Assembly: GCA_965660795.1 (NCBI GenBank)
Contig: CBFIBF010000001.1
Coordinates: forward strand, 30,932 to 94,931
DNA from: Gammaproteobacteria bacterium
GTDB lineage: Bacteria > Pseudomonadota > Gammaproteobacteria > GCA-002705445 > GCA-002716945
Length of the DNA: 64,000 nt
Reading direction: 5' to 3'
Shown here: positions 11,263-57,954 of the stretch, piece by piece
Numbering within the stretch: the stretch's first letter is position 1
How the letters are laid out: each line of letters opens with the position of its first letter
Position numbers and translations under genes: made by a program
The notes under the pieces: model-generated
The model's database searches: none
What the model saw: the letters and a program-made list of their open reading frames with translations, nothing else
What the model was told of the DNA's origin: nothing

Positions 11263-11264
11263 TT

Positions 11265-11573
11265 ATGAGCACAATAAAAATGAGACCCAAAGAATCAAAT
11301 GGTGTTGTAACAGTCAAAGCTCTTATTAAACACCCCATGGAAACTGGGCAAAGAAAAGATAAAAAAACAGGCAATCTGATTCCAGCTCATTTCATTCAAG
11401 AGGTGCATGGTAAAGCTAATGGCAAGGAAGTAATAAAAATATACTGGGGTCCAGCTGTATCAAAAAATCCTTATCTAACATTTAAGTACAAAGGCAGCAA
11501 AGGTGATGAAATAGAATTGTCTTGGGTTGATAATCAAGGTAATCGTGACTCAGCCGTAGGAAAAGTTAAGTAA
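11265..11573 (+). CDS. soxZ: SoxZ
   Basis: 102 aa immediately after soxY; a SoxZ-like beta-sandwich sequence (IKALIKHPMETG). Confidence 0.85.
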   Translation: MSTIKMRPKESNGVVTVKALIKHPMETGQRKDKKTGNLIPAHFIQEVHGKANGKEVIKIYWGPAVSKNPYLTFKYKGSKGDEIELSWVDNQGNRDSAVGKVK

Positions 11574-20410: not shown

Positions 20411-20412
20411 AC

Positions 20413-20622
20413 TTATGTATCCGTTTTTTTCTCTGATTTCTTTGTCTTGAAGTCAGTTTCATACCATCCAGAACCTTTCAGTCTAAAACCAGAAGATGAT
20501 ACCATGCGCTCAACAGCACCGTTTTTACCACACTTACAATTAGTAAGTTTTTTATCTGATATTTTCTGCATAGCCTCGAATACCTTGTCACAGACTTTAC
20601 ATTTATATTCATATATAGGCAT
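20413..20622 (-). CDS. FmdB-family zinc-ribbon protein
   Basis: 69 aa beginning MPIYEYKCKVC, with a second CxC pair. Confidence 0.8.
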   Translation of the reverse strand: MPIYEYKCKVCDKVFEAMQKISDKKLTNCKCGKNGAVERMVSSSGFRLKGSGWYETDFKTKKSEKKTDT

Positions 20623-20720
20623 AGTTTTTGAGTGTGTTATTTATTGATTTTAATCGACATTATACAAAAAAAATCTTATTTTATCTCTTATAAATTTAGT
20701 GCTATAATGCCACAAATTTT

Positions 20721-21026
20721 ATGAAAGCTATATTTAAAAGCATAATCTTATTTTCCTTAACACTTTCCATATCGAACGCTGATGAGTATACAGGTAAAGA
20801 GAAATCTGAAACTTGTCTGGGCTGTCATGCTATTGAGGGGTACAACAATACATACCCCACATACAAAGTACCTAAATTAGGTGGGCAACATTCAGATTAT
20901 ATTGTTTCTGCATTGAAGTCCTATCAAAAAAGAGACAGAAACCATGAGACTATGCATGCAAATGCTTCAGGTCTATCTGATCAAGATATTATTGATATAG
21001 CTAAATATTTCGAGTCAATTCAATGA
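20721..21026 (+). CDS. Monoheme cytochrome c (cytochrome c4 half-domain-like)
   Basis: Signal peptide, CLGCHA, and a distal Met ligand region (RNHETMHANASGLSDQDI). Confidence 0.75.
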   Translation: MKAIFKSIILFSLTLSISNADEYTGKEKSETCLGCHAIEGYNNTYPTYKVPKLGGQHSDYIVSALKSYQKRDRNHETMHANASGLSDQDIIDIAKYFESIQ

Positions 21027-21349
21027 TCAGGATAAATTTCATATTAGTATTGCTTTTATTTGTTACTCATCCTTCTTTTGCTGATTCAAGCTTTGACCGT
21101 GGAAAAGAAAAGTCCGTCACATGTGCTGCATGCCATGGAGCAGATGGTAATAGCAACAACAAGATGTATCCAAGATTAGCAGGTCAATACAAAAATTATC
21201 TAATACATTCGTTGAAAGCATATAAATCGGGCGATAGAAAAAATGCAATTATGAGTGGTTTTGCAGCAGGCTTATCAGAGCAAGACATCATCGACTTATC
21301 GACATATTATTCTAAACAAAAAGGTCTTAAGATTATTCCAAAGAATTAG
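21023..21349 (+). CDS. Monoheme cytochrome c (cytochrome c4 half-domain-like)
   Basis: Own signal peptide, CAACHG, and PRLAGQ...RKNAIMSGFAAGLSEQDI. Its start overlaps the previous stop (ATGA). Confidence 0.75.
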   Translation: MIRINFILVLLLFVTHPSFADSSFDRGKEKSVTCAACHGADGNSNNKMYPRLAGQYKNYLIHSLKAYKSGDRKNAIMSGFAAGLSEQDIIDLSTYYSKQKGLKIIPKN

Positions 21350-34826: not shown

Positions 34827-35123
34827 ATGGTTTATCATACAATAAATGAGAACTTTATGAAAAAAATATCGGATTTCATACCAAAGAAAGTAATTGATAA
34901 AAAAGAGAATATAGAAAGTTTAAATCTAATTCTTAATGATTCAATCGAAACCAACTTAAAGAATAAAATACGTGTGATCAACTACAGCGAAACATGCATA
35001 ACAATAGAGTGTGATGATACCTCAATTGCCAGTATCATGCGATTTGAAAAGGACAAATACTTGGATATATTTAACGAGAATGATTTAAGTAATATTAAAG
35101 AACTTAAAGTAAGAGTCAGATAG
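34827..35123 (+). CDS. DUF721 / DciA-like small protein
   Basis: 98 aa with an [31 protein letters not shown] pattern resembling DUF721. It lies between lpxC and secA on the opposite strand, which is where Pseudomonas-type genomes carry a DUF721 gene. Confidence 0.45.
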
Positions 35124-36024
35124 ACTCAGTCGTATGAGCAAATAATATTGGTGATTTTACTTCATCCTCTATTATCACTTCTTCCCATGCATTTTGATTA
35201 TTCACAAGTTCTCTAAGTAAAAGATTGTTCAAGTGATGGCCTGATTTAAAAGCTGAGAAAGAACCAATAATACTATGACCAAGAAGGTATAAATCACCAA
35301 TAGCATCAAGTATTTTGTGCTTAACAAATTCGTCCTTATATCTTAAGCCATCTTCATTGACGATTTTATAATCATCTATAACAATTGCATTATTAACGCT
35401 TCCGCCTAGCGCTAGATTATTTTTTCTTAACTTTTCAATATCCTTTGCAAAACCAAAAGTTCTTGCTCTACTAACTTGGCTAAGGTAAGAAACAGAAGAG
35501 AAATCAATAGTAGATGTTTGTGTATCTTTAGGAAATAAAGGGTGATTAAAATCAATGGTAAATTCTACTTTGAACCCATCAAATGGCTCAATTTTTGCCC
35601 ATTTATCAGCTTGCTTTACCTCAATGTCTTTTATAATTTTAATGAACTTCTTCGGATGATTTTGCTCACAAATGCCAGCAGATTGACATAAGAAAACAAA
35701 AGGTCTTGAGCTTCCATCCATGATAGGAACTTCGGGTCCATCTAGTTCAACACGTGCGTTATCAATACCTAAGCCTGCAAATGCTGATAATAAATGTTCG
35801 ACAGTAGAGACAGATTCTTCACCATTTGAAATAGTTGTCGACAATCTAGTGTCATATACGTTTTTCAAAGATGCAGATATTGGTGTGTTTGATAAATCCT
35901 TTCTAATAAAAACAATACCCTCGTCGGATTTCCCAGGACATATTTTTAAGTTTATTTTTTTACCAGTGTGAAGACCAACGCCTGTTGCAGTAATAGTGCT
36001 GGATAAAGTCCTTTGTTTTAACAT
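35116..36024 (-). CDS. lpxC: UDP-3-O-acyl-N-acetylglucosamine deacetylase
   Basis: 302 aa with N-terminal [17 protein letters not shown] and the HTTE C-terminal motif. Confidence 0.95.
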
Positions 36025-36088
36025 AAGATGATTCTACCAAAGTGTTATAATTGTTACAAATATATTAATATTAGACAATAAACAGGAA

Positions 36089-37333
36089 TCAAAGTTCCTT
36101 TTGAAAATAATCAGAGATTTTCTTTGCGTATTTATCAAGTATAGAGCCAAATTTTGACATATTTTTAGAGGAAGTTTTGTTTAATGTAAGCTCTTTATAT
36201 CTGTGCAATAGGAGTCCTACAGCGGTCGCATATCTTGTTTTACCTCTTAAGTCTTCGAGTCCTTTAATATGTCTAGGTGATCCAATTCTTGATGGTTTTT
36301 GGAAAAATGATTCAGCGAAAACATCTAACCCCTCAAGTTTAGATCCTCCACCTGTGAAAACTAACCCTGCTCTTATACTATTTGAATAACCGCTATTATT
36401 AATCTCTCTTTGTATCGCATCTAGGATTTCATTAGCCCTAGCAGTTATTATTTGAGATAGTATTGTTTTTGTAGTTTCAGTATCAGGTTTATCTGAGACT
36501 GATGGAACCGGTATTTTTATGTCTGTATCAACATTAGGGGCAACAGAACCAAACTGAATTTTCATCTCTTCAGCAGCCTCTAAAGATGTACTAAGAATAA
36601 TTCTAATATCTTTTGTTATCATCTGACCAGCAATAGGAATTACAGCAGAATGTTTTATGGTTCCATCAGTAAAAATTGCAATATCAGTTGTCCCACATCC
36701 AATATCAACAAGGCAAACACCTAAGTCACGCTCTTCATCAGACAATACTGCTTCAGATGAAGCCACAGGCTGAAGAACATAATCATTAATTTCTAAAAGA
36801 CTATTGTTAATACATTTAGTCAAATTTTTTTTAGCAGTAGATGATGTTGTTATTATGTGGACATTCGCCTCAAGTCTTGATCCAGCCATCCCTAATGGCT
36901 CTCTGATACCTGGTTGTCCATCAATTGTGAAGTGCTGTTCAATTGCATGCAGAATTTCTTGATCATTTGGTATTTGAATATTTTGCGCATTTATTAGAAC
37001 TTTTTGTTTGTCCTCTTGAGTTACCTCATCATTAAGTATGTTAACAGCGCCATTTCCATTGTAACTTTGAATATGGTTACCAGCAATTCCAGTGGTAACA
37101 GACTGAATATTACAATTAGACATTAAACTGGCTTTATCTTTAGCTCTTCTGATACTTGATACAGTAGTGTCAATATCTGAAATTATGCCTTTGTTTAAGC
37201 CTGAGCATGGTTCGCTACCTATACCTACTATCCTTAGCTCTCCTTTTTCATCTATATCAGCTACTAAACATAAAACTTTAGAGGTTCCAATGTCCAATGA
37301 AACAAGAGTATCAGTGCTTTTAACGTTTGCCAT
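36089..37333 (-). CDS. ftsA: Cell division protein FtsA
   Basis: 414 aa actin-like ATPase (LVSLDIGTSKV) with a C-terminal amphipathic membrane-targeting helix. Confidence 0.95.
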   Translation of the reverse strand: MANVKSTDTLVSLDIGTSKVLCLVADIDEKGELRIVGIGSEPCSGLNKGIISDIDTTVSSIRRAKDKASLMSNCNIQSVTTGIAGNHIQSYNGNGAVNILNDEVTQEDKQKVLINAQNIQIPNDQEILHAIEQHFTIDGQPGIREPLGMAGSRLEANVHIITTSSTAKKNLTKCINNSLLEINDYVLQPVASSEAVLSDEERDLGVCLVDIGCGTTDIAIFTDGTIKHSAVIPIAGQMITKDIRIILSTSLEAAEEMKIQFGSVAPNVDTDIKIPVPSVSDKPDTETTKTILSQIITARANEILDAIQREINNSGYSNSIRAGLVFTGGGSKLEGLDVFAESFFQKPSRIGSPRHIKGLEDLRGKTRYATAVGLLLHRYKELTLNKTSSKNMSKFGSILDKYAKKISDYFQKEL

Positions 37334-38910: not shown

Positions 38911-39743
38911 TTTATTAAAATCACCTCTTCTTTTAAATTAACATTATGTGTTAAGGAAACTATGTGTTTTACATAATCAAGAAGGTTTAGAAAATCCCAA
39001 TGAGTGCCTGTGCCGTCATTGATAAAATAATTTGAATGTTTCTTTGAGACATATATTCCACCTATCCTTTTACCTTTCAAGTTGGCAGATTCAATCAGTT
39101 CAGATGCGAAATCATGAGTAGGATTTTTAAAAATACATCCACATGATAATTGATTTACAGGCTGAGTAGCTTTTCTTTTGTAATCAAGATTATTAATCAT
39201 AGAGCTATCGAATTTAATTTTGGGATTATGTAACTTGATAGAAATAATAACCGCTTTGGGATCAATGCCTGAGTTCCTGTATGTATATTGAATATCTTTT
39301 TTAAATAGTGTTTGCAATCTTCCGTCTTTATCTAATAAATCAATACTATGAATATTATTTAATATTTCTTTTTCAAAAGCACCTGCATTCATAAAAACTG
39401 CTCCTCCTAAGGTTCCGGGAATACCATAGAGAAATTCATAACCTGATATTTGATGATTATATAAATATCTCGCTAGTTTAGTACAAGATATATTACTAGA
39501 ACATGAAATATACTCTTCATCATGAGAAAGATACTTGCTCATTTTTTTTAAACTCAAAATGATACCGTCATAATAATCTGTCACAAAACATACATTAGAC
39601 CCATTACCAATGCTTAGAACACTGTTATTATGAAGTATATTAGTCAGCTCTTCAGTATTCTCAGGACAACAGAATTCACGACAAGTACCCCCAAGACCTA
39701 TGGTGCTTATCTTTTTTAAAGGATAATTTTTATATGTCTGCAT
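38907..39743 (-). CDS. murB: UDP-N-acetylenolpyruvoylglucosamine reductase
   Basis: 278 aa with an FAD-binding domain and MurB C-terminal motifs (SCGCIFKNP). Confidence 0.88.
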   Translation of the reverse strand: MQTYKNYPLKKISTIGLGGTCREFCCPENTEELTNILHNNSVLSIGNGSNVCFVTDYYDGIILSLKKMSKYLSHDEEYISCSSNISCTKLARYLYNHQISGYEFLYGIPGTLGGAVFMNAGAFEKEILNNIHSIDLLDKDGRLQTLFKKDIQYTYRNSGIDPKAVIISIKLHNPKIKFDSSMINNLDYKRKATQPVNQLSCGCIFKNPTHDFASELIESANLKGKRIGGIYVSKKHSNYFINDGTGTHWDFLNLLDYVKHIVSLTHNVNLKEEVILIK

Positions 39744-41121
39744 TTGCTTTTATTAAATAAAGAATTTCTCTTATATCACCTGCTCCCTGAAGTACAACAA
39801 CACAATTTTCAAGATTTAATTTTTTTAACTCAGGAATTATGTTTTTTATAGATTTAACATAAACCTTATTTCTATTTCTGATTTTCTTAAACAAATATTC
39901 TGAATCATATGAGTTATTCTTTTCTCCTGCTGAATACGTTGGTAACAATAGCACTACATCTAATGATGACAATATTTCTGAGAATAACTTCCAGTGAAGT
40001 TTTGTTCTAGAGTATCTATGAGGTTGAAACACCATAACTATTTTTCTTTTAGGATATATTTCCTTAATTGTTTTAATTGTTGACTGAATTTCAGTTGGAT
40101 GATGTCCATAATCATCTATTATCGTAGGTTTAGAGTTTTTAATATTTAAATTATCATAAATATCGAATCTTCTGCTAGCTCCATAAAATGTCTTGAGGGA
40201 TTTCAGAGCTTTACGTGTATCTATACCTAGATGTATAGCTACTGAAACTGCAGCAAGAATATTATAAATGTTGTGCTTACCAAAAAGATTGGTTTGAACT
40301 GGGTAAACATGATTATCATAATGAACATCAAACATCATATATGTATTTGTGTACATAATTGACTTAGCTCTCAAGTCATTATTTTTAGTAAATCCATAAC
40401 TAAATATCTCTCTGTTTATATGTTTGAATAATTTGTTTGAGTTTTTATCATCACCATTCAAGAATACTTTTCCATAAAAAGGAATAGAGTTTATGTGTTT
40501 TAGAACAGATCTCTCCAGGTTTGTATAATTATTGTTATAGTTTTCTAAATGTTCTTTATCTAAATTAGTTAGCACAACAAGATGAGGTTGTAGTAATGAA
40601 AAAGTTGGATCACTTTCATCGGTCTCTGTCACTAGATAATGACTTTTCCCCAGATTAACATGAGGGTCATCTGTTTTAAGTTTACCTCCAATTAGATATG
40701 TTGGATCAAGATTATTTGAATACATAATATGACTTAACAAGCTTGTTGTAGTTGTTTTGCCATGAGAGCCAGTAATGGATATTCCATACTTTAATCTCAT
40801 TAGTTCAGCAAGTATCTCCATTCTAGCTAGAACAGTCAGGCCGGACTTAATAGAGTACTTTAGCTCGACATTGTTCTTACTAATTGCATTCGAATGTACA
40901 ACAATGTCATTAGTTTTAATATTTTTTGGATCATGCCCGATAAATATTTTGATTTTTCTCTCACGTAATCTAGTAATTGCAGTATTGATTTTAATATCGG
41001 AGCCTCTGACAGAAAAACCCATATTATGAAGTAACTCAGCAATACCCATCATACCTGCGCCTCCAATACCAATCAGAAAAAATGATTTATTTTTAAGATG
41101 TTGCGTTATTGAGTTTTTCAT
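39730..41121 (-). CDS. murC: UDP-N-acetylmuramate--L-alanine ligase
   Basis: 463 aa Mur ligase with an N-terminal GIGGAGMMGIAELL and the Mur ligase middle and C-terminal domains. Confidence 0.92.
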   Translation of the reverse strand: MKNSITQHLKNKSFFLIGIGGAGMMGIAELLHNMGFSVRGSDIKINTAITRLRERKIKIFIGHDPKNIKTNDIVVHSNAISKNNVELKYSIKSGLTVLARMEILAELMRLKYGISITGSHGKTTTTSLLSHIMYSNNLDPTYLIGGKLKTDDPHVNLGKSHYLVTETDESDPTFSLLQPHLVVLTNLDKEHLENYNNNYTNLERSVLKHINSIPFYGKVFLNGDDKNSNKLFKHINREIFSYGFTKNNDLRAKSIMYTNTYMMFDVHYDNHVYPVQTNLFGKHNIYNILAAVSVAIHLGIDTRKALKSLKTFYGASRRFDIYDNLNIKNSKPTIIDDYGHHPTEIQSTIKTIKEIYPKRKIVMVFQPHRYSRTKLHWKLFSEILSSLDVVLLLPTYSAGEKNNSYDSEYLFKKIRNRNKVYVKSIKNIIPELKKLNLENCVVVLQGAGDIREILYLIKANADI

Positions 41122-47019: not shown

Positions 47020-48430
47020 TCTTACTTATTAGACCCTCTAAATAATCAATATCATTATGCTTTATTTTTCTGTTATTTTTTAGAATAAAGTTTTCATTAC
47101 CTTTACCTAGTATGAAATTTAATTCATTTTTGGTTGAGGTTTCAAAAAGATATTTTATTGCTTTTTTCCTGTTTTCAATAACCCTGACTTTATTTTTATG
47201 TACGATGCCAGAAATAATATCTTTTTTGATAACAGAAAATTTTTCGGTTCTAGAGTTATCTTCTGTCATTATTATTTCTGATGAGAATTTATCAACAATC
47301 TTTGCAGTTAACTTTCTTTTAGAAGTATCTCTGTCACCGCCACATCCAAATAAAGTACGAACTTTTTTATTTTTACAAAAATCATAAAATATATTTTTAT
47401 AAGCTTGTTCAGTATGTGCATAATCTATTAAAAATATACCATTATGTTTTGTAGATATAATATGTCTTCTACCTTTTAATGGTTTCAATCTGGATATAGA
47501 TTCTAATATTTCATCAATATTGAATTTCTCTAGCTTCATTAACGCGATTATTAATTTTATCGAATACTTATTGAAAGGATTCATTTTTGTTTTATGAAAT
47601 GATCCTAAGATATCTGTGTCTATAAAATTTTTTTTGTTTATTTTATTTTTTGAGATGTAATACTTTTGTTTACATTTATATTGGGAATTATCAATTTTTT
47701 TTAAATTTATACAATCATGATTCAATACTACTTTTATGCTCTGATTAATTATATTTAACTTTGAATGAATGTAATTCCTAAGAGTTTTATGATAATCAAT
47801 ATGGTCTTTTTCAATATTTGTTATTACTGAATAATCAAAATTTATACCATCTAACCTCCCTTGATGTAATCCTTGTGATGAACACTCAATGATAATGTAA
47901 TCGCATTTCTTCAGTGAAAAATTAATTATATTTTTATAAATTATATCAATTGGTGGTGTTGTATAATTATTTTGTAAAGTATTAGGGTATATGCCGATAC
48001 CCTCACTTGAAATTAATCCTACTTTTTTATTCTGTATTGTTAGTGAATCTGCAAGTAGTAATGACGTAGAAGTCTTTCCATTAGTTCCAGTAACTCCAAT
48101 AAGGCAAGGTAATTGCTTAATCTTCAATAAATCATATTTAAATAACTTACTATATGTACTGAAGATATCTTTTGATACCAAATAAGGAACCGATTTATTA
48201 AGAGTTTTGCGTGAGTAAATAAATGGAGTAATAAATCCGCTTGCGCCTTTTTCTATAGCATCTTTTATATTAGAAAAATTTTTTTTGGTGTTTTTCTCAA
48301 GTGATATAAATACTTGATTCTCTCTTAAATACTTAGAATTAATACAAAATCTATTTGATAAATACTTGTCATACCTTGTATTGCATAAGATAAATTTTTT
48401 ATATTGTTTTAATTTATCTTGAGCCTGCAT
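47009..48430 (-). CDS. murE: UDP-N-acetylmuramoyl-L-alanyl-D-glutamate--2,6-diaminopimelate ligase
   Basis: 473 aa Mur ligase (GVTGTNGKTST, GCGGDRD). Confidence 0.9.
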   Translation of the reverse strand: MQAQDKLKQYKKFILCNTRYDKYLSNRFCINSKYLRENQVFISLEKNTKKNFSNIKDAIEKGASGFITPFIYSRKTLNKSVPYLVSKDIFSTYSKLFKYDLLKIKQLPCLIGVTGTNGKTSTSLLLADSLTIQNKKVGLISSEGIGIYPNTLQNNYTTPPIDIIYKNIINFSLKKCDYIIIECSSQGLHQGRLDGINFDYSVITNIEKDHIDYHKTLRNYIHSKLNIINQSIKVVLNHDCINLKKIDNSQYKCKQKYYISKNKINKKNFIDTDILGSFHKTKMNPFNKYSIKLIIALMKLEKFNIDEILESISRLKPLKGRRHIISTKHNGIFLIDYAHTEQAYKNIFYDFCKNKKVRTLFGCGGDRDTSKRKLTAKIVDKFSSEIIMTEDNSRTEKFSVIKKDIISGIVHKNKVRVIENRKKAIKYLFETSTKNELNFILGKGNENFILKNNRKIKHNDIDYLEGLISKNGS

Positions 48431-50135
48431 ATTCTATATTGCTATCAATTCTCATGATATGTTGCATGAATTCACCAAAAACTGGCGCAGCATGATAACC
48501 GCCTGAGCCTTGTCTATCTTTTGGTTCTCTTATAATTACAGCTGCAACATATTTAGGTATAGGATCTCCGACGATGCCAACAAATAATGCATTGTGATTA
48601 TTGGTATTATATTTTCCATTTTTTAGTAGTCTTACTGTACCTGTTTTACCATATGTCGTATATCCATTAACTTTAGCTTTTTTTCCTGTTCCATCATCTG
48701 AGTGAACTACTTGCTTCATCATATTAAGAACGATTGATGTTTTCTTGCTATCTAACAACTGATGATCCTTCTCAAAGTGTAATTCGTTACTATTGATATA
48801 CTTTAATTGAGTATAATGCCCCTCATTAGCCAATATTGTATACGCGTTCACTAAATGCATTAATGATACAGATATACCATACCCATAACCAATACTGTGA
48901 TGTTCTGATTCGGATATTTCATTAGTTGTTGGTAACTTTCCATTTCTAGATCCTGGAAGGTCTATATATAGTGAATGTCCAAATCCAAATTTCTCAAGAT
49001 TACTGATTAGTTGTTTCTTTGATAGCATTGTTGATACTCTAGCCGCACCAATGTTGCTCGAGTACTTAATGATATCACCTGATGAAACTTTCCCTAAAAA
49101 TTTCCAATCCTTAATTTCTTTATCATCAAGCTTTATGATTCCTGGGGCAGTATCAATGATCGTATCATGATTAATCAGACTATGATGAAGTCCAGCATAA
49201 ATTATAAAGGGTTTTATGGTTGATCCTGGCTCTATCAAATCATGAATAATTCTGTTCTTGATTTTTTCACCTGAATAACTTGTTCTTGTTTCTGGATCAA
49301 AAGAAGGATAATTTGCCATTGACAAAATATTACCAGTAGCTGTCTCAACAAGAACAATAGATGCGCTGTCTGCCTCAAACTTCTTTACATATTTCTTCAA
49401 AACATCATATGCAATAATTTGTATTTGCTTATCAAGCGTAAGTGTTACGTCTAATCCAGCCTTAGATTTCTTTATGATTTCTAGCGTTTCAATTGCTCGA
49501 CCGATATTATCTTTTTTTATTTTTTTAATTCCATCTGAAGGTTTTAAGACTTTGTTTTTGGCAAGCTCAATTCCTTCTTGTCCTACATCATCAACATTAG
49601 TAAATCCTAAAACATTAGAAAATGCTTCACCTCCTAAATAAGACCTTTTACTCTCATTGATGAAATAAATATAAGAATTTTTATATTTTTCAATCTTTGT
49701 AAACTCTAATTTTGAAATATGTCTTTTTAAATAATATTCCTTTTTATCTTTATTTCTATATATTGCTTTGCTGATTTTCTGGTAAGGAATATCAATAATT
49801 TCTGAAATTTTTTTTAAATCATCTTTATATTCTGATGTATAAAGCTTGCTTGGATTAATACATAAAGTTTTTGAGGGCAATGACATTGCTAATATATTTT
49901 TATTTCTATCAAATATAATTCCGCGCTGCTCTTTAGTTATTATATTTTGTATCTGTCTTTTTTTCCCCTCATTGATTATATTTTGCTTGCAGGTACTTTC
50001 ATTGAAATAAAAGCAATCCGTGCCTTTGATTTGGATGAAATATAATCTAATAATAATTATTAGAAGTGTAATGGAGGCTATTATTACGAATAATAATAGT
50101 CTCCATTTTTCATTTTTTACTTTACTATCAATCAG
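48414..50135 (-). CDS. ftsI: Peptidoglycan D,D-transpeptidase FtsI (PBP3). The true start is unresolved: the track ORF starts at the first ATG (49886), but the transmembrane N-terminus lies upstream.
   Basis: The 490-aa track ORF has PBP dimerisation and transpeptidase motifs (STIKP, SSN, KTGT). The same frame stays open upstream to 50144 and encodes ...KWRLLLFVIIASITLLIIIIRLYFIQIKGTD...QRGIIFDRNKNILAMSLP. That is the canonical FtsI cytoplasmic, transmembrane and pre-PBP segment, but it has no in-frame ATG, GTG or TTG. Candidate starts are CTG at 50135 or ATT at 50132. Alternatively ATG at 50113 is one base out of frame at an A-run. Confidence 0.75.
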   Translation of the reverse strand: MIDSKVKNEKWRLLLFVIIASITLLIIIIRLYFIQIKGTDCFYFNESTCKQNIINEGKKRQIQNIITKEQRGIIFDRNKNILAMSLPSKTLCINPSKLYTSEYKDDLKKISEIIDIPYQKISKAIYRNKDKKEYYLKRHISKLEFTKIEKYKNSYIYFINESKRSYLGGEAFSNVLGFTNVDDVGQEGIELAKNKVLKPSDGIKKIKKDNIGRAIETLEIIKKSKAGLDVTLTLDKQIQIIAYDVLKKYVKKFEADSASIVLVETATGNILSMANYPSFDPETRTSYSGEKIKNRIIHDLIEPGSTIKPFIIYAGLHHSLINHDTIIDTAPGIIKLDDKEIKDWKFLGKVSSGDIIKYSSNIGAARVSTMLSKKQLISNLEKFGFGHSLYIDLPGSRNGKLPTTNEISESEHHSIGYGYGISVSLMHLVNAYTILANEGHYTQLKYINSNELHFEKDHQLLDSKKTSIVLNMMKQVVHSDDGTGKKAKVNGYTTYGKTGTVRLLKNGKYNTNNHNALFVGIVGDPIPKYVAAVIIREPKDRQGSGGYHAAPVFGEFMQHIMRIDSNIEYAGSR

Positions 50136-51261
50136 CTTGTTGTCTTAGAAATGCTGGTATGTCTATTGAAGTTTGATCTTCTTGTCCAGATAGATCTACA
50201 TGCTCAATATTATTATTGGAGTTTTGAAAGCTTTTAACACTGTTCATGTTTTCTTTAGGTTGTTCTTCTAAAGAAGGTTCAGTAGTTACAACATCTGCTA
50301 CATTGTTTTGTACAAAACCTGTTGCAATTATAGTAACTCTCAAGTCTCCTATATTATCATCTTCTTTAATACAGCCGGTGATAATCTTTGCGTCTTCATG
50401 TGCAATTTCTCTGATTTTATTTCCAATAACTTCAAATTCATCTGTAGTCAAATCTGAACCAGATGTAATGTTAACAAGAACGCCGCTTGCGCCTTTAAGG
50501 CTTATATTATCAAGTAAAGGGCTGCTAAGTGCTGTAGTAACAGCTTCCTCAGCTCTATTTTCACCAGATGAAACACCAGAGCCCATCATTGCCTTGCCCA
50601 TTCCTGACATTACGGTTTTAACATCTGCAAAATCAACATTCATAAAACCTCTAATAGTTATAATTTCTGTTATCCCTTTGACAGCACCTCTTAGCACGTC
50701 ATTAGCGTTTTCAAATGATGAAAATATGGATTCTCCTCCGCCATATACCTCTTTAAGTTTTGAATTTGGTATTACAATGAGTGAATCCACCCATTGTTCT
50801 AGATTATCTATGCCTTCTTGTGCATTTGCCATTCTCTCTGGACCCTCAAAATCGAATGGTTTTGTCACTACAGCAACTGTCAGTATACCTAAATCCCTAG
50901 CAATCTGGGCAATAACTGGTGCTGCGCCTGTGCCTGTTCCACCACCCATACCAGCGGCTATGAAAAGCATATCTGCTCCTTCAATTGACTCTTTTAGAGT
51001 TTCGCTTGCTTCAAGTGCTGCTTGTCTGCCTTTTTCAGGATCTGCGCCAGCTCCTAATCCTTTAGTTATTTCAGAGCCTATCTGAACCGTGACTGCGCCG
51101 TCTATATCCCTTAGGGCTTGTACATCAGTATTTGCAATTAAAAAATCTGCCCCATGAATTTGAGACTTAAGCATCGACATAATAGCGTTACCACCGCCAC
51201 CGCCTACACCAATAACTTTGATAACCGCATTTTGATTATAATTATTTACTATTTCAAACAT
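50128..51261 (-). CDS. ftsZ: Cell division GTPase FtsZ
   Basis: 377 aa with the GGGTGTG tubulin signature and the conserved C-terminal peptide DIPAFLRQQAD. Confidence 0.97.
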   Translation of the reverse strand: MFEIVNNYNQNAVIKVIGVGGGGGNAIMSMLKSQIHGADFLIANTDVQALRDIDGAVTVQIGSEITKGLGAGADPEKGRQAALEASETLKESIEGADMLFIAAGMGGGTGTGAAPVIAQIARDLGILTVAVVTKPFDFEGPERMANAQEGIDNLEQWVDSLIVIPNSKLKEVYGGGESIFSSFENANDVLRGAVKGITEIITIRGFMNVDFADVKTVMSGMGKAMMGSGVSSGENRAEEAVTTALSSPLLDNISLKGASGVLVNITSGSDLTTDEFEVIGNKIREIAHEDAKIITGCIKEDDNIGDLRVTIIATGFVQNNVADVVTTEPSLEEQPKENMNSVKSFQNSNNNIEHVDLSGQEDQTSIDIPAFLRQQAD

Positions 51262-51270
51262 GGTGTCCTC

Positions 51271-51540
51271 CTATTGATCCATATTCATGATTAAAATTCT
51301 TTCTTTATTTGGCAGCTGCATATTAAGAGCCTTACCTAGACTATTTTTCTGTAAAACTTTATCTGTAATGTCAGCTTTATCTTTTAGCAACTGTCGATAT
51401 GATTCAGATAAATAATAATGTTTCTTTTCGTTTTCAGATATTTCAATGTTCAAGATTCTATTTTGATATTTTATAAAAATCACTCCAAAAGCTGAAATGG
51501 TTATAAGTAAAATTAAAACAAAAGAAGCTGTCAAATTCAT
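51271..51540 (-). CDS. ftsL: Cell division protein FtsL
   Basis: 89 aa with a single transmembrane helix plus coiled coil, sited between rsmH and the downstream division genes. Confidence 0.75.
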   Translation of the reverse strand: MNLTASFVLILLITISAFGVIFIKYQNRILNIEISENEKKHYYLSESYRQLLKDKADITDKVLQKNSLGKALNMQLPNKERILIMNMDQ

Positions 51541-52469
51541 ATTGATTTCTCCAATACATTTATTTTTGCTGATCTTGATCTTATATTTTCTATGACTTCA
51601 CTTTGAGATGGTTTAATTTTTTTTATTAAGTTAAATAACTTTTTAAGAAATTCATTTTTTATAGGTATTTTTCTAGGTGTAGATAAATTATGATCGGTCA
51701 ATATCATAAAATCTTTTATAACTCGTTCTTCTAGTGAATGATAAGTTATAAGAACTAATCTACCTTTAGGAGCTAGTATGCTGTATGATTTTTCTAAGAT
51801 ACTTTTGAGAACATCTAGTTCCTTATTGACAAAGATTCTCAAAGCTTGAAAAGATCTGGTTGCATTATGTTTATTCTTATCATTAACTAAAACAGATTTG
51901 TTGATTATATTCACTAGCTCGAGAGTACTATTAATTGGGCTCAATGCTCTATGTTTGATTATGTTTTTAGCAATTCTTTTTGAGAATTTTTCCTGCCCAT
52001 ATACTCTTAAGATGCTCTCAATATCTTTTTCTGGTAACTCATTTATATATTCTGAGGCTTTTTTGCCATAATTTTGATTGAATCTCATATCTAAAGGCGC
52101 ATCTTTATTGAAACTAAACCCTCTGTCTGCATCATCTAAGTGGACAGAAGAAACACCAAGATCGAACAAAATACCGTTAACTGATCCATATACATTCCAT
52201 GTCCTAGCATATTCATCAAGAGAAGAGAAACATCCATGTTTTAGGGTAAACCTATTCTCTTGCGCAAATTGTTTTTTATTATAATCAATAGCATCCTTGT
52301 CTTTATCAACCGCAAAAATCTTTGCGTCCTGATTAGTATTCTCTAATATTGAAATTGAGTGGCCGCCATATCCAAGAGTAGCATCTATATATACTCCACT
52401 CTTATCGGTTATCAGATGCTTAATTGCTTCATTCTTCATTACTGGTATATGGAACTGAGTATTATTCAT
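51537..52469 (-). CDS. rsmH: 16S rRNA (cytosine1402-N4)-methyltransferase RsmH (MraW)
   Basis: 310 aa with a SAM motif (YIDATLGYGGHS) and conserved RsmH regions. Confidence 0.93.
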   Translation of the reverse strand: MNNTQFHIPVMKNEAIKHLITDKSGVYIDATLGYGGHSISILENTNQDAKIFAVDKDKDAIDYNKKQFAQENRFTLKHGCFSSLDEYARTWNVYGSVNGILFDLGVSSVHLDDADRGFSFNKDAPLDMRFNQNYGKKASEYINELPEKDIESILRVYGQEKFSKRIAKNIIKHRALSPINSTLELVNIINKSVLVNDKNKHNATRSFQALRIFVNKELDVLKSILEKSYSILAPKGRLVLITYHSLEERVIKDFMILTDHNLSTPRKIPIKNEFLKKLFNLIKKIKPSQSEVIENIRSRSAKINVLEKSI

Positions 52470-52656
52470 TTTCTTTAAAGCTTCTTATATGTTCATATGC
52501 AGATTTGATTCTTATAAATATTTTGATAGATTGGGAATCGTTCTTATTTTTGTCTGGATGATATTTTGACGCTAGTCTTCTGTAAGCTGCTTTTATTACA
52601 GACATGTCATCACTAGCATTTACTCCCAATATTCTATAGTCGTTATTAGTTATCAT
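52462..52656 (-). CDS. Stand-alone J-domain protein (DnaJ-like, 64 aa)
   Basis: DYRILGVNASDDMSVIKAAYRRLASKYHPDKNKND...IKSAYEHI is a complete J domain with the HPD motif. Its start overlaps the mraZ stop (ATGA) and its stop overlaps the rsmH start by 8 nt. Confidence 0.65.
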   Translation of the reverse strand: MITNNDYRILGVNASDDMSVIKAAYRRLASKYHPDKNKNDSQSIKIFIRIKSAYEHIRSFKENE

Positions 52657-53144
52657 ATACTTATGTCATTTAAAGCTTCTACATCATCCGTAGAGGTTGC
52701 CTCTTCACGCCATTTCTCAACATTGCGATCCCAAGAATTCTGATCCCAAATTTCAAATTTTTCACCTTGACCAATCAATATGACTTTTTTTGATAATGAT
52801 GCGTATTGTCTTAGTGGTTTTGAGATTAGAATTCTACCACTTGAATCAACATCAACGTCTTCTGCATGGCCAATTAAGAGTCTTTGAATTCTTCTAGCAT
52901 TTCTATTAAAGCTCGGTAAGTTACTGATTTTATCCTGAATCTTAGACCAAATTGTTGTTGGATATAAAAGTAGACATTTATCCTCAGTATCAATAGTTAT
53001 CACCATTGAGCCTTTTAAAAGGTTTGTAATATGTTCTCGATAGGAAATAGGAATACCTAGCCTGCCTTTTGAATCAAGGCTAAGATTGTGAATACCTTTG
53101 AATAGATTCTCCATTTTTCTCCACAAAATAACAAATAATGCCAT
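52653..53144 (-). CDS. mraZ: Transcriptional regulator MraZ
   Basis: 163 aa with duplicated MraZ/SpoVT-AbrB-like halves (GIHNLSLDSKGRLGIP / HAEDVDVDSSGRILI). First gene of the dcw cluster. Confidence 0.93.
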   Translation of the reverse strand: MALFVILWRKMENLFKGIHNLSLDSKGRLGIPISYREHITNLLKGSMVITIDTEDKCLLLYPTTIWSKIQDKISNLPSFNRNARRIQRLLIGHAEDVDVDSSGRILISKPLRQYASLSKKVILIGQGEKFEIWDQNSWDRNVEKWREEATSTDDVEALNDISI

Positions 53145-53287
53145 TTATCAACACTATATGACTTATTTTTAACATATGCAAGTAGTAATAGAGATAAACT
53201 AATGAAAATGTAGATAAATGAAGATTAAAATAACTAAAATATTAATTTTTATATATATTTCAGTTACTTATCGTATAATATTAATTA

Positions 53288-53616
53288 GAGAGAGTTAATC
53301 TATAAGCCGGGTTCTGTCGTGTACAGCTATTTATCTTGAATTATTGTCACCAATAATCTCATTAGCAGCAACCATGTGATTATATTGGGATGAATCACAA
53401 ATTTGCCTTGCTCCAAGTGGGGTTTACTTATGCCTACTTTGTTACCTCAGTAGCGGTAGGCTCTTACCCTACCTTTTCACCCTTACCTTTAAACAGGCGG
53501 TTATTTTCTGCAGCACTTTCCAAAACTCACGTTTTCCAGGTGTTACCTGGCACTTTTTCCCTGGAGCCCGGACTTTCCTCTATGTAATACATAGCAGCTG
53601 TATGATTAACTCTCGT
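53288..53616 (-). ncRNA. rnpB: RNase P RNA (bacterial type A)
   Basis: On the minus strand: GAGGAAAGUCCGGGCUCCAGGGAAAAAGUGCCAGGUAACACCUGG (P4 and the universally conserved region), and near the 3' end CGACAGAACCCGGCUUAUAG matching E. coli M1 RNA. The 5' segment 53614..53604 (GAGAGUUAAUC) pairs with the 3' segment 53300..53290 to form P1. It is locally GC-richer than its surroundings. The ends are approximate (about 10 nt). Confidence 0.88.
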
Positions 53617-55443: not shown

Positions 55444-56052
55444 ATGTCGACTAAATTACAAAAAGATGATATTTCTATTGCCATTTTAGCTGGCGGAAAA
55501 TCATCAAGAATGGGTGGTAATAATAAAGGTCTCATGAAGCTAAATAATAAGCTTGTTTTGTCAAGGCTAATATCTATTGCATGTAATTACTCATCTGATG
55601 TTTTTGTTATTGCAAATGATCTACTAGATGAATATAGAAAAATTCATCAAAACGTTTATTCAGATATTCTTGAAGATTATCAAGGGCCATTATCTGGTAT
55701 ATACTCTGCGCTTTCGTATTGTAAAAATCAATATTTAATCACCTTGCCATGTGATGGACCATTCCTCTCTAAAGAATATTTTGAAACTTTGACTGAATTT
55801 AATAATGAAAAAAAGATCTTTGTAACAAAGACAGGTGATAGGCTTCAGCCTGTGCATGCAAGAATTGATACATCGCTAAAAAATAATTTAAAACTCTTCT
55901 TACAATCTGGAGAGAGAAAAATAGATAAGTGGTATACTTCATGCGGATATGAAGTGGTTTTATTTGATGAAAGTGATGAAATGTTTATAAATCTAAATAC
56001 AAAAATAGATATTGAAGAAAATATTGAATTAATTAAAAAACTATATGGATAA
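55444..56052 (+). CDS. MobA-like nucleotidyltransferase (molybdenum cofactor guanylyltransferase family)
   Basis: 202 aa with AILAGGKSSRMGGNNKGL and PCDGPFL, matching MobA motifs. First gene of the C1-cofactor cluster. Confidence 0.7.
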   Translation: MSTKLQKDDISIAILAGGKSSRMGGNNKGLMKLNNKLVLSRLISIACNYSSDVFVIANDLLDEYRKIHQNVYSDILEDYQGPLSGIYSALSYCKNQYLITLPCDGPFLSKEYFETLTEFNNEKKIFVTKTGDRLQPVHARIDTSLKNNLKLFLQSGERKIDKWYTSCGYEVVLFDESDEMFINLNTKIDIEENIELIKKLYG

Positions 56053-56575
56053 ACATAGAATAGCATGGTGTATTACTGGTTCGGGTCATTACCTAAAAGA
56101 ATCAATTGATCTTATGCTTACATTAAATCATGTAGATTTATATTTGAGTAAAGCAGGTGAAGAGGTACTCAAATGGTATGACTATGATCTTGATATTTTC
56201 AAGAAAAAGAAGATTAAAATATTCAAAGATATAACTGCCAGCTCGGCACCAGTTAGTTTATTATATGAGTCTGTTTATAAACTAGTTGTTATCTCGCCTG
56301 CTACCTCAAATACAATAGCTTTCATGGCACAGGGTATGTCTAATAACCTTGTGACAAATATGTTTGCACAAGCTGGTAAATGTGGAATTAAAACACTAGT
56401 TTTTGCATGCGATACTGAACCAGTTGTAATTACACAGGCACCTAAAAAATTAGTTACTTTATACCCAAGAGAAATAGATTTAAAAAATTTTAGAGCTTTG
56501 AAAAAATTTAAAAATGTATCCGTTGTTGATAACGTAGCATCTTTGAAAAAAGCTTTAAGTAAATTAATTAAATGA
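56045..56575 (+). CDS. Flavoprotein-family protein (CoaC/EpiD/AfpA fold); candidate dihydromethanopterin reductase (DmrX/AfpA-like)
   Basis: 176 aa with AWCITGSG and ISPATSNTIA, the two signature motifs of the FMN-binding flavoprotein family. Overlaps its neighbours (8-nt and 4-nt overlaps). Confidence 0.55.
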   Translation: MDKHRIAWCITGSGHYLKESIDLMLTLNHVDLYLSKAGEEVLKWYDYDLDIFKKKKIKIFKDITASSAPVSLLYESVYKLVVISPATSNTIAFMAQGMSNNLVTNMFAQAGKCGIKTLVFACDTEPVVITQAPKKLVTLYPREIDLKNFRALKKFKNVSVVDNVASLKKALSKLIK

Positions 56576-57954
56576 AAAATATTTTATTCATTACAGGTAA
56601 GTTGGCTGAAAAAGGCCTTAAGACAGTCCTTGATGGTATTGAAGAAAAAAAATTTAATTACAAAATAAAAAATCTTAATGTGAATGTAGCGGCTCTTTTA
56701 ACAACAGACATGATTGAGAGACGTATTGGTGATGTTAGTCAGTTTGATGAGATTATAATTCCTGGAAGAGTGCGTGGGGATATAGAACGTCTTGAAAAGA
56801 TTGTTAAAAAGAAGGTAACCAGAGGTCCTGATGAATTAAAAGACTTACCAATAATGTTCGGAGCAAAAGCTGTCAAATATGATCTTTCAAAATTTGAAAC
56901 AGCAATATTTGGGGAAATTACAGATGCATTAAATATGACTATTGAAGCTGTAATAGAAAGAGCAGAATATTTTAGATCAGAAGGAGCTGACGTAATAGAC
57001 ATTGGTTGTTTGCCAAATAAAGAATTCCCTCATCTTGAAGAATTAGTCCAGGAACTGAAAAATAGAAATTTCTATGTCAGTATTGATTCTCATAATACAG
57101 ATGAATTGATTCGTGGTTCTAAAGCTGGTGCAGATTATCTCTTAAGTATTAAAAGTGAGACATATCACATACTTGAAAACCTTGACTCATATCCTGTTCT
57201 TATCCCATCAGATAATAATTTACCTGAATTTTATAACCTAATTGATAGAGCTATAAAGGATAATTTAACTTTTATAGCGGATCCAATTCTGGACCCTGTT
57301 TCATATGGGTTTACTAAAAGTTTAATGAGGTATGTAAATTTGAGAGAAAAATATCCTGACATTCACATAATGATTGGTATAGGAAATATCACTGAACTTA
57401 CTCATGCTGATACTACGGGAATAAATATGATAATGCTAGGTATCGTAGAAGAACTCAAATTAAACCACATATTAACAACCCAGGTCAGTAGACATTGTTC
57501 GACGGTCATAAGAGAAACTGACCTTGCAAGGAGAATAATTCATGCGGCTTCTGAAAATAATATTACACCAAAGCATATAAATGATGGATTAATGGCAAAT
57601 CATGATCATAAAGATTATCCTTTATGCTCAGATGAACTAAGTGAAATGCAAACAAAAATCAAAGACAAGAACTATCGTATTTATGTCAATGATGATGGGA
57701 TACATTTATTTAATAAAAATATATACAAAGTTTTTAGTGACCCTTTTAAGTTTTATGAGTATCTTGATTTGAATGATGATACAGGGCATGCATTTTATCT
57801 TGGTGTTGAATTAGCAAGGGCACAAATCGCATTTCAATTAAAGAAGAATTATCATCAAGATGAGGAACTTACTTGGGGGTGTTTAGTTGATAAAGAAATT
57901 GATGATATGATAAGTGAAAAGAAATTAGGTCCGACATTCAAAAAAATAAAATGA
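56572..57954 (+). CDS. Dihydropteroate-synthase-like pterin-binding protein (H4MPT-pathway type) with a C-terminal extension
   Basis: 460 aa carrying Pterin_bind-like motifs (GADVIDIGCLPN, SIDSHNTDELIRGSKAGADYL, MIGIGNITELTHADTTGIN), followed by about 170 residues of unassigned sequence. Confidence 0.6.
   Translation: MKNILFITGKLAEKGLKTVLDGIEEKKFNYKIKNLNVNVAALLTTDMIERRIGDVSQFDEIIIPGRVRGDIERLEKIVKKKVTRGPDELKDLPIMFGAKAVKYDLSKFETAIFGEITDALNMTIEAVIERAEYFRSEGADVIDIGCLPNKEFPHLEELVQELKNRNFYVSIDSHNTDELIRGSKAGADYLLSIKSETYHILENLDSYPVLIPSDNNLPEFYNLIDRAIKDNLTFIADPILDPVSYGFTKSLMRYVNLREKYPDIHIMIGIGNITELTHADTTGINMIMLGIVEELKLNHILTTQVSRHCSTVIRETDLARRIIHAASENNITPKHINDGLMANHDHKDYPLCSDELSEMQTKIKDKNYRIYVNDDGIHLFNKNIYKVFSDPFKFYEYLDLNDDTGHAFYLGVELARAQIAFQLKKNYHQDEELTWGCLVDKEIDDMISEKKLGPTFKKIK

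What the first reader, a model, noticed from the sequence alone, without database searches (positions are those of the whole stretch)
52462..52656. Translationally coupled stand-alone J-domain micro-gene inserted between mraZ and rsmH
A 64-codon ORF encodes a complete J domain with the HPD motif and nothing else. Its ATG overlaps the mraZ stop (ATGA) and its stop overlaps the rsmH ATG by 8 nt, so it is embedded in the first operon of the division/cell-wall cluster. mraZ-rsmH adjacency is almost invariant in bacteria. A DnaK co-chaperone module co-expressed with the divisome genes would be a new link between Hsp70 and cell division or rRNA methylation.
Basis: seen in the sequence. Interest (0 to 1): 0.5.

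Follow-up and report, generated by a model that had tools for sequence, protein, structure and literature searches.

The report
Minimal J-domain gene inside division operon
A real, strongly conserved 64-codon gene for a bare Hsp70-activating J domain sits between mraZ and rsmH in the cell-division operon of a widespread group of uncultured marine Gammaproteobacteria, which suggests but does not prove a hard-wired link between the DnaK chaperone and division genes.

Summary
Window 52462..52656 (minus strand) is a 64-codon ORF that matches Pfam DnaJ (E=1.4e-15) and has HPD at residues 33-35. It overlaps the mraZ stop by 4 nt (ATGA) and the rsmH start by 8 nt.

It is a gene, not a remnant. Every related locus with enough upstream sequence (23 looked up or scanned plus 77 of 77 metagenome loci) has a 62-66 codon J ORF in the same slot with 1-8 nt overlaps. 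This holds down to 30% J identity and 53% RsmH identity. Synonymous sites are saturated while dN is about 0.2.

The protein equals E. coli DnaJ residues 1-64: helices I-III plus HPD, no helix IV and no client-binding part. "Complete J domain" is therefore slightly overstated.

It is the second cistron of a conserved operon, mraZ-J-rsmH-ftsL-ftsZ, with an MraZ-box operator. ftsZ has moved here from its usual place after ftsA.

Most likely it is a J-domain-only DnaK co-chaperone made by translational coupling. A division-specific client is plausible but unproven.

By-products: ftsI usually lacks a canonical start codon, and a covarying RNA hairpin follows ftsZ.

The parts
52462..52656 (-). J micro-gene: 64-aa J-domain-only protein (helices I-III plus HPD at residues 33-35)
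   Evidence: ORF. Pfam DnaJ E=1.4e-15. Three-helix AlphaFold model, pLDDT 84.5. Superposes on the DnaK-bound DnaJ J domain 5nro_B at rmsd 1.1 A. Conserved in all relatives. dN about 0.2 with dS saturated.
52653..52656 (-). ATGA overlap of the mraZ stop with the J start (translational coupling signal)
   Evidence: Across relatives the overlap is 4 nt (55 loci) or 1 nt (35 loci) and is never a gap. There is no GGAG/GAGG/AGGA upstream of the J start in 61 of 75 distinct sequences.
52462..52469 (-). ATGAATAA overlap of the J stop with the rsmH start
   Evidence: Across relatives the overlap is 8, 4 or 1 nt in nearly all loci.
52653..53114 (-). mraZ, with probable start at ATG 53114 (MENLF..., 153 aa). 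The ORF extends to an upstream ATG at 53144 that lies inside the operator.
   Evidence: Pfam MraZ E=1e-33. Relatives are called at 153 aa. An SD-like GGAG lies 6 nt upstream of 53114.
53121..53181 (-). Conserved promoter-like region and MraZ-type operator. TTGCAT (53181..53176), 17-nt spacer, TATAGT (53158..53153). Four (G/A/T)TG(G/T) boxes 6 nt apart (53154..53121).
   Evidence: Conserved across 17 divergent relatives, coordinates. [quoted passage not shown] Binding was not tested.
51537..52469 (-). rsmH (mraW), 16S rRNA m4C1402 methyltransferase family
   Evidence: Pfam Methyltransf_5 E=1.9e-97
51271..51540 (-). ftsL (4-nt overlap with rsmH)
   Evidence: Pfam FtsL E=1.9e-08; coordinates
50128..51261 (-). 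ftsZ, relocated to directly follow ftsL (9-nt gap). There is no ftsZ between ftsA and lpxC.
   Evidence: Pfam Tubulin and FtsZ_C. ftsA is at 36089..37333 and is followed by lpxC at 35116..36024. The order ftsL-ftsZ(-ftsI) holds in all 74 related loci with enough sequence.
50073..50104 (-). Covarying RNA hairpin 26-57 nt after the ftsZ stop, inside the 5' coding part of ftsI. It is a candidate 3' boundary or attenuator of the mraZ-J-rsmH-ftsL-ftsZ unit.
   Evidence: Palindrome. A hairpin is predicted in 54 of 54 distinct junctions. 11 pairs, 9 with compensatory changes. 93.4% of cells paired against 38-64% in slid controls.

Best explanation
The ORF is a functional gene for a minimal, J-domain-only Hsp70 (DnaK) co-chaperone. 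The protein corresponds to DnaJ residues 1-64. It has helix I, the basic helix II, the HPD loop and helix III. It has no helix IV, no G/F region, no zinc finger and no client-binding extension.

It is the second cistron of a tightly packed operon, mraZ-J-rsmH-ftsL-ftsZ, that carries an MraZ-box operator. J has no Shine-Dalgarno motif of its own, and its ATG overlaps the mraZ stop. It is therefore probably translated by ribosomes that terminate on mraZ and re-initiate. The rsmH start in turn overlaps the J stop.

The protein would dock through helix II, HPD and helix III on ATP-bound DnaK and trigger ATP hydrolysis, locking DnaK onto whatever client occupies its substrate site. Because J carries no client-binding part, any specificity would have to come from being made on the same mRNA, at the same time and in fixed proportion with the operon's products (MraZ, RsmH, FtsL, FtsZ).

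Shown here: gene reality, purifying selection, J fold, conservation of the DnaK-contact residues, fixed operon position and coupling signals.
Inferred: DnaK binding and ATPase stimulation (about 0.75), translation by coupling, and a division- or ribosome-related client (about 0.25).
For: - Pfam DnaJ E=1.4e-15. The best solved-structure match by sequence is the E. coli DnaJ J domain, residues 1-62, colinear without gaps.
- AlphaFold model with pLDDT 84.5 and three helices. Its top Foldseek hit is 5nro_B, the J domain bound to DnaK: rmsd 1.1 A, 48% identity, and a target chain of 63 residues, the same span as this protein.
- Among 66 distinct family sequences, H33, P34, D35, L10, I21, F47, A53, Y54 and I57 are invariant. 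K22, K31, Y32 and K36 are at least 95% conserved, and position 27 is always K or R.
- Family pairwise identity goes down to 30% and length stays at 62-66 aa.
- dN is 0.18-0.23 against relatives and dS is saturated (above 1.9 or not computable). Omega is about 0.1 or less, similar to RsmH and FtsL.
- The gene is present in the same slot in all loci with upstream sequence: L001-L013 and L016-L023, 77 of 77 metagenome loci, and L104/L105, whose FtsZ is only 68-69% identical.
- The overlaps with mraZ (4 or 1 nt) and rsmH (8, 4 or 1 nt) are conserved. No SD-like motif precedes J in 61 of 75 sequences, while mraZ has GGAG.
- The promoter-like motif and four MraZ-type boxes upstream of mraZ are conserved (box pattern as in PMC12957436).
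- Precedent: the short J protein AtcJ works with partners encoded in its own operon (PMC6715715).
Against: - There are no expression data (no transcript, ribosome footprint or peptide) and no biochemical test of DnaK binding.
- Helix IV is missing, and its absence might weaken folding or function.
- No residues are conserved beyond the generic J-domain and DnaK-contact set, and the C-terminal tail (residues 58-64) is variable. There is therefore no visible partner-binding surface, which weakens the idea of a specific client.
- Constant operon position could be inertia in a compact genome rather than functional linkage.
- From my own recollection of the literature (not checked here), isolated J domains stimulate DnaK only weakly unless a client is already bound.
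- The rest of the genome could not be examined, so I do not know whether these organisms also carry dnaJ, cbpA or djlA.
Confidence: 0.55

Rival explanations
1. The protein is a general housekeeping J domain with no division-specific role. It is a free DnaK activator, possibly compensating for a reduced set of J proteins in a streamlined genome. It sits in the dcw operon only because that gives constitutive, growth-coupled expression without needing its own promoter or ribosome-binding site.
For: No conserved surface or extension exists beyond the DnaK-contact residues. The genome is compact and low in GC, with overlapping genes throughout this region. J-domain-only proteins are very common: about 100,000 of about 280,000 J proteins surveyed (PMC10410713).
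Against: The slot between mraZ and rsmH, with overlaps on both sides, is kept across relatives whose synonymous sites are saturated, and down to 30% J identity within the family. The same lineage did rearrange the cluster by moving ftsZ. Tight coupling on both sides usually goes with proteins needed in fixed ratio.
Confidence: 0.3
2. The protein regulates or antagonises DnaK. A bare J domain would compete with full-length DnaJ for the same site on DnaK. This would tune DnaK availability, for example for sigma-32 control, as a function of dcw operon expression.
For: All DnaK-contact elements are retained and there is no client-delivery module. The phage J protein Rki appears to compete with DnaJ and stabilises sigma-32 (PMC3486835).
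Against: Rki needs its large C-terminal domain for its effect, and this protein has none. There is no evidence on expression level. A competitor would have to be abundant, but a gene with no SD that depends on re-initiation is probably made at modest levels.
Confidence: 0.1
3. The ORF is a non-functional leftover, either a fragment of a dnaJ or djlA-like gene or a chance ORF.
For: It is colinear with the first 64 codons of dnaJ, so it probably arose from a 5' fragment of a dnaJ- or cbpA-type gene.
Against: Length is fixed at 62-66 codons in 66 distinct sequences with no internal stops. dN/dS is about 0.1 or less with saturated dS. HPD is invariant. The truncated copies that were seen (P0017; the L015 locus) lie in long-read contigs where every neighbouring gene is also frameshifted.
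Confidence: 0.02

Closest known systems
J domain of E. coli DnaJ (class A), as seen bound to DnaK in PDB 5NRO
   Same: Colinear with residues 1-64. Family members are 28-45% identical to E. coli DnaJ, and the model is 48% identical to 5nro_B over the aligned columns. Same helix I-II-HPD-III geometry at rmsd 1.1 A. The basic helix II residues, HPD, F47 and the AYE motif are conserved.
   Different: It stops where helix IV begins. It has no G/F region, zinc finger or C-terminal client-binding domains. The NCBIfam DnaJ models score 47-51 bits against cut-offs of 338-377. It is encoded in the dcw operon, not next to dnaK.
AtcJ of Shewanella oneidensis (short J protein, cold adaptation; PMC6715715)
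   Same: It is a very short bacterial J protein encoded in an operon with the proteins it works with, and it has a functional HPD J domain.
   Different: AtcJ has a complete J domain plus a 21-residue C-terminal extension. That extension is essential and binds AtcC. The protein here has no extension and lacks helix IV. The operon is different (atcJABC against mraZ-J-rsmH-ftsL-ftsZ). The NCBIfam ActJ/AtcJ model scores 39.6 bits against a cut-off of 150.
J-domain-only J proteins ('JD-only JDPs', Malinverni et al. 2023, PMC10410713)
   Same: The architecture consists only of a J domain. This is a large, mostly uncharacterised category of about 100,000 sequences.
   Different: This family is at the extreme short end, smaller than a canonical J domain of about 70 aa. 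It also has a fixed, unusual genomic address inside the dcw operon.
ZipN/Ftn2 of cyanobacteria and ARC6 of chloroplasts (from my own knowledge, not tested here)
   Same: They are the known precedent for a J or J-like domain associated with FtsZ-based division.
   Different: Those are large membrane-anchored FtsZ-binding proteins with an N-terminal J-like domain. This one is a 64-aa soluble J domain in Gammaproteobacteria. No homology beyond the J fold is implied.
Rki, the J protein of phage RB43 (PMC3486835)
   Same: It is an accessory J protein that engages host DnaK outside the standard DnaJ/CbpA/DjlA set.
   Different: Rki is 237 aa and has a C-terminal domain required for its effect. A phage database search with the J protein gave only generic J-domain similarity below 50% identity.

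Membership tests
J domain (Pfam PF00226, DnaJ) | Profile HMM score above the curated gathering threshold | tested here: met
   57.5 bits against a cut-off of 27.8, E=1.4e-15
J domain (Pfam PF00226, DnaJ) | His-Pro-Asp tripeptide in the loop between helices II and III | tested here: met
   H33-P34-D35 is invariant in 66 distinct family sequences. It lies in the loop between model helices 18-31 and 41-63.
J domain (Pfam PF00226, DnaJ) | Basic helix II face and helix III residues that contact Hsp70 | tested here: met
   K22 98%, K/R27 100%, K31 95%, K36 98%, F47 100%, A53 and Y54 100%. Superposes on the DnaK-bound J domain 5nro_B at rmsd 1.1 A.
J domain (Pfam PF00226, DnaJ) | Four-helix topology including helix IV (about 70 residues) | tested here: not met
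   The Pfam match ends at profile position 53 of 63. The model has three helices only. The protein ends at DnaJ residue 64.
J domain (Pfam PF00226, DnaJ) | Stimulates the ATPase of its Hsp70 partner | not testable with these tools
   Needs purified protein and DnaK
Class A/B DnaJ or CbpA co-chaperones | G/F-rich region, (zinc finger) and C-terminal client-binding domains after the J domain | tested here: not met
   The protein is 64 aa in total. NCBIfam DnaJ scores 51.3 against 338 and 47.1 against 377, and CbpA scores 42.2 against 403.
DjlA | N-terminal membrane anchor with a C-terminal J domain, full-length model match | tested here: not met
   NCBIfam PRK09430 scores 36.3 bits against a cut-off of 162. 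Only residues 5-36 match. No flanking remnants exist, since the neighbours are intact mraZ and rsmH.
AtcJ/ActJ short cold-adaptation J protein | J domain plus a C-terminal extension of about 21 aa that binds AtcC, in an atcJABC operon | tested here: not met
   NF050028 scores 39.6 bits against a cut-off of 150. There is no extension. The operon is different. Feature definition from PMC6715715.
J-domain-only J proteins (class C subset) | No annotated domain other than the J domain | tested here: met
   A single Pfam hit covers residues 7-57 of 64. Category as defined in PMC10410713.
dcw 5' operon under MraZ control | Repeated GTG(G/T)-type boxes spaced by 6 nt upstream of mraZ | tested here: met
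   GTGT-6-ATGG-6-TTGT-6-GTGG at 53154..53121, conserved in 17 relatives. Pattern from PMC12957436. MraZ binding itself was not tested.

The most novel reading that the evidence does not exclude
The 64-aa J protein is a dedicated divisome or dcw chaperone adaptor. It is made in fixed ratio with MraZ, RsmH, FtsL and the relocated FtsZ, and it directs DnaK to one of these. The most attractive candidates are FtsZ assembly or turnover, or RsmH and late 30S maturation. If so, Hsp70 action would be an obligatory, operon-encoded step of cell division in a widespread marine bacterial lineage. The J insertion, the move of ftsZ next to ftsL, the start-codon-less ftsI and the post-ftsZ hairpin would then be parts of one re-engineered control module.
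Probability: 0.2. Interest if true: 0.75.

Novelty: new variant of a known kind. Interest (0 to 1): 0.5.

Why it matters
J proteins decide what Hsp70 works on. A natural J protein reduced to the bare DnaK-triggering element, smaller than a canonical J domain, tests how little is needed for function.

Its fixed place between mraZ and rsmH is unusual, since these two genes are normally neighbours at the head of the dcw cluster. That makes this one of the few cases where a chaperone component is encoded inside the division operon.

If a client among the operon products is found, it would give a genetic handle on the old observation that dnaK mutants have division defects (my recollection, not checked here). 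The gene is found in many Tara Oceans and other marine metagenome assemblies, so the family is widespread.

If it proves to be only a generic J domain, the finding is a tidy annotation upgrade for a protein family now labelled 'DnaJ domain-containing protein'.

Tried and rejected
- **Naming the lineage.** Record titles say only 'uncultured gamma proteobacterium' or 'Gammaproteobacteria bacterium'. A search for the SAG name found nothing. Searches pairing SAR86 or Thioglobus with tetrahydromethanopterin were uninformative. Window gene content (soxYZA, a sulfur transporter, H4MPT and methanofuran-type genes, about 31% GC) hints at a sulfur-oxidising streamlined group such as SUP05/Arctic96BD-19. 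I could not verify this.
- **Finding a sister lineage without the J gene.** The metagenome scan with an RsmH alignment kept the 80 best loci, and all of them belong to J-bearing genomes. FtsZ homologues at 68-69% identity still have it.
- **Prior literature.** Searches for mraZ with J-domain, for J-domain/FtsZ/DnaK, and for dcw gene-order insertions found no description of this gene. The search for 'ActJ' found nothing. AtcJ was found later through.
- **Phage origin.** Only generic J-domain hits below 50% identity were found, so this was rejected.
- **DjlA or DnaJ remnant.** Rejected on the conservation data and the NCBIfam scores.
- **Exhaustive profile search of 1.84 billion representative proteins.** The family collapses to a handful of 64-66 aa representatives, followed by generic J domains (118,263 hits at E<=0.001). 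This gave no context and no new lead.
- **Literature support for a DnaK-FtsZ link.** The search gave only tangential papers. That link is cited from my own knowledge only.

Full report
**Observation**

The finding's coordinates hold an ORF on the minus strand, 52462..52656, of 64 codons. It matches Pfam DnaJ (PF00226) at E=1.4e-15, with 57.5 bits against a gathering cut-off of 27.8, and it has HPD at residues 33-35.

The upstream ORF, 52653..53144, is MraZ (E=1e-33). The downstream ORF, 51537..52469, is RsmH/MraW (E=1.9e-97). J's ATG shares ATGA with the mraZ stop, and J's last codons share ATGAATAA with the rsmH start.

One point needs correcting. The domain is not quite complete:
- The Pfam alignment stops at profile position 53 of 63.
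- The family aligns without gaps to E. coli DnaJ residues 1-64.
- An AlphaFold model (pLDDT 84.5) has three helices, at 4-10, 18-31 and 41-63, and no helix IV.

**Is it a gene?**

A first protein search found 19 relatives, and a profile search found more than 100 clusters. Almost all are 62-66 aa and come from marine metagenomes, including Tara Oceans.

Every genomic context I inspected has the same order, mraZ-J-rsmH-ftsL-ftsZ-ftsI. This covers:
- loci L001-L013 and L016-L023;
- four species-representative genomes titled only 'uncultured gamma proteobacterium' or 'Gammaproteobacteria bacterium';
- two loci reached through FtsZ proteins that are only 68-69% identical to the window's.

A metagenome scan seeded with an RsmH alignment returned 80 loci with RsmH identity from 98% down to 53%. 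Of these, 77 carry the J ORF directly upstream of rsmH. In the other three, rsmH sits at the contig edge.

Across the loci with a complete ORF:
- J is 64 (50 loci), 65 (26), 66 (11), 63 (5) or 62 (1) codons long;
- it overlaps the mraZ stop by 4 or 1 nt in all loci;
- it overlaps the rsmH start by 8, 4 or 1 nt in nearly all loci.

Against relatives, synonymous sites are saturated (dS above 1.9 or not computable) while dN is 0.18-0.23. Omega is therefore about 0.1 or less, in the same range as RsmH and FtsL.

The only truncated copies lie in long-read contigs where all neighbouring genes are also frameshifted, so these are sequencing errors. The ORF is a gene under purifying selection, not a remnant.

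**What the protein is**

Sixty-six distinct family sequences have pairwise identity down to 30%. Their conservation is as follows:
- invariant: L10, I21, H33, P34, D35, F47, A53, Y54, I57;
- nearly invariant: G11, D17, K22, K31, Y32, K36;
- always basic: positions 27 and 61.

The conserved residues are those of a generic J domain. They cover the hydrophobic core, the basic helix II face, the HPD loop and the helix III AYE motif. The last seven residues are variable.

The best sequence match among solved structures is the E. coli DnaJ J domain. The best fold match is chain B of 5NRO, the J domain bound to full-length DnaK. It gives rmsd 1.1 A over 50 columns at 48% identity, and the resolved chain of 63 residues is about the size of this whole protein. 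The protein therefore keeps the elements that contact DnaK and nothing else.

The NCBIfam models for DnaJ, CbpA, DjlA and the short cold-adaptation protein ActJ/AtcJ all score far below their cut-offs. No second J domain is encoded in the window.

**Operon context**

Upstream of mraZ, and conserved in 17 divergent relatives, lie the following:
- a TTGCAT motif (53181..53176), a 17-nt spacer and TATAGT (53158..53153);
- four (G/A/T)TG(G/T) boxes spaced by 6 nt (53154..53121);
- a GGAG motif, then the probable mraZ ATG at 53114.

The box pattern is the published MraZ operator pattern (PMC12957436).

The genes that follow are packed tightly:
- mraZ and J overlap by 4 nt;
- J and rsmH overlap by 8 nt;
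- rsmH and ftsL overlap by 4 nt;
- ftsL and ftsZ are separated by 9 nt.

J has no GGAG/GAGG/AGGA motif upstream in 61 of 75 distinct sequences. That fits translation by re-initiation after mraZ termination, which is an inference.

In this lineage ftsZ is not in its usual place. ftsA (36089..37333) is followed directly by lpxC, and ftsZ sits between ftsL and ftsI. This order holds in all 74 related loci long enough to tell.

**Mechanism and rivals**

My best reading is a J-domain-only DnaK co-chaperone. It is produced in fixed proportion with the operon's other products and triggers DnaK's ATP hydrolysis.

Whether it serves a particular client is open. In favour: the slot has been kept, with both overlaps, across deep divergence in a lineage that did rearrange this cluster. 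The precedent of AtcJ also counts in favour. AtcJ is a short J protein that works with proteins of its own operon (PMC6715715). Against: AtcJ does this through a 21-residue tail, and this protein has no tail and no conserved extra surface.

The rivals are:
- **A generic housekeeping J domain that merely borrows the operon's expression signals.** J-domain-only proteins are very common (PMC10410713).
- **A DnaK competitor or regulator in the manner of phage Rki.** Rki, however, needs its large C-terminal domain (PMC3486835).
- **A dead remnant.** This is excluded by the conservation data.

**Comparison and novelty**

The fold and motif are those of a canonical J domain, so this is not a new kind of protein. 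Public pipelines already call it 'DnaJ domain-containing protein' or 'molecular chaperone DnaJ'.

The new features are the extreme reduction, with no helix IV and no extension, and the fixed address inside the dcw 5' operon. I found no description of this in the literature searched. I rate it a new variant of a known kind, of moderate interest.

**By-products**

1. The ftsI reading frame is open from 17 nt before the ftsZ stop and encodes the conserved membrane anchor. In 41 of 57 distinct junctions, including the window, there is no in-frame ATG, GTG or TTG at or before the anchor. All 55 distinct junctions examined have CTG and/or ATT overlapping the last ftsZ codons. In the window these are CTG 50135..50133 and ATT 50132..50130. 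This suggests a non-canonical start coupled to ftsZ termination.

2. An RNA hairpin lies 26-57 nt after the ftsZ stop, at 50073..50104. It is predicted in 54 of 54 distinct junctions and is supported by covariation. Nine of 11 pairs show compensatory changes. 93.4% of cells are paired against 38-64% in slid controls, and no shuffle out of 500 reaches the observed values. A U-rich tail follows it in only 24 of 55 junctions, so a terminator role is uncertain. No Rfam family matches there.

These features may set the FtsZ-to-FtsI expression ratio, and they mark the end of the unit that contains the J gene.

**Limits**

- I could not name the lineage.
- I could not reach a relative that lacks the gene.
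- I could not check whether these genomes also carry dnaJ, cbpA or djlA.
- I could not test expression or DnaK binding.

Noticed in passing
window 50128..51261 (ftsZ) and 35116..37333 (ftsA, lpxC): ftsZ has moved from its usual place after ftsA to between ftsL and ftsI. ftsA is followed directly by lpxC. The order ftsL-ftsZ-ftsI holds in all 74 related loci long enough to tell.
   Followed up: partly
window 49887..50135 (-), the 5' end of ftsI: The longest canonical ftsI ORF (48414..49886) lacks the membrane anchor. The same frame stays open up to 17 nt inside ftsZ and encodes the conserved anchor with no in-frame ATG, GTG or TTG. This is true of 41 of 57 distinct junctions. All 55 junctions examined have CTG (window 50135..50133) and/or ATT (50132..50130) overlapping the ftsZ stop. 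This suggests a non-canonical start coupled to ftsZ termination. A frameshift producing an FtsZ-FtsI fusion seems much less likely.
   Followed up: partly
window 50073..50104 (-): A conserved RNA hairpin lies just after ftsZ, inside the anchor-coding part of ftsI. There are 11 pairs, 9 with compensatory changes, and 93.4% of cells are paired against 38-64% in slid controls. Its 5' arm starts with an SD-like GGAG. A U-rich tail follows in 24 of 55 junctions. No Rfam family matches there. It is a possible attenuator or mRNA-end stabiliser.
   Followed up: partly
window 53121..53181 (-): A conserved promoter-like TTGCAT-17-TATAGT is followed by four (G/A/T)TG(G/T) boxes 6 nt apart, immediately upstream of mraZ. 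This matches the published MraZ operator pattern. The upstream ATG at 53144 lies inside the boxes, so mraZ probably starts at 53114.
   Followed up: partly
window 53287..53613 (-): An RNase P RNA gene (bacterial class A, 264.7 bits) lies directly upstream of the mraZ promoter on the same strand. The neighbourhood dusA - methyltransferase - rnpB region - mraZ is conserved in relatives.
   Followed up: no
window 10801..12401 (+), 13893..15092 (-), 56045..57954 (+): The window encodes SoxY, SoxZ and a SoxA-type cytochrome, a sulfur transporter, and flavoprotein and dihydropteroate-synthase-like genes of the H4MPT/methanofuran type. GC is about 31%. This hints at a streamlined sulfur-oxidising marine gammaproteobacterium. 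The lineage could not be named.
   Followed up: partly
L104 and L105, positions about 19171..21155: In the more distant J-bearing relatives murG is followed directly by murB and ddl, with no murC between them. In the window murC (39730..41121) sits between murG and murB.
   Followed up: no
L010 and L015: Two long-read ('pilon') contigs show frameshifts in many genes of this region, including J, rsmH, ftsZ and ftsI. These are assembly errors rather than pseudogenes, and they explain the 48-aa and 85-aa J variants in the protein database.
   Followed up: yes
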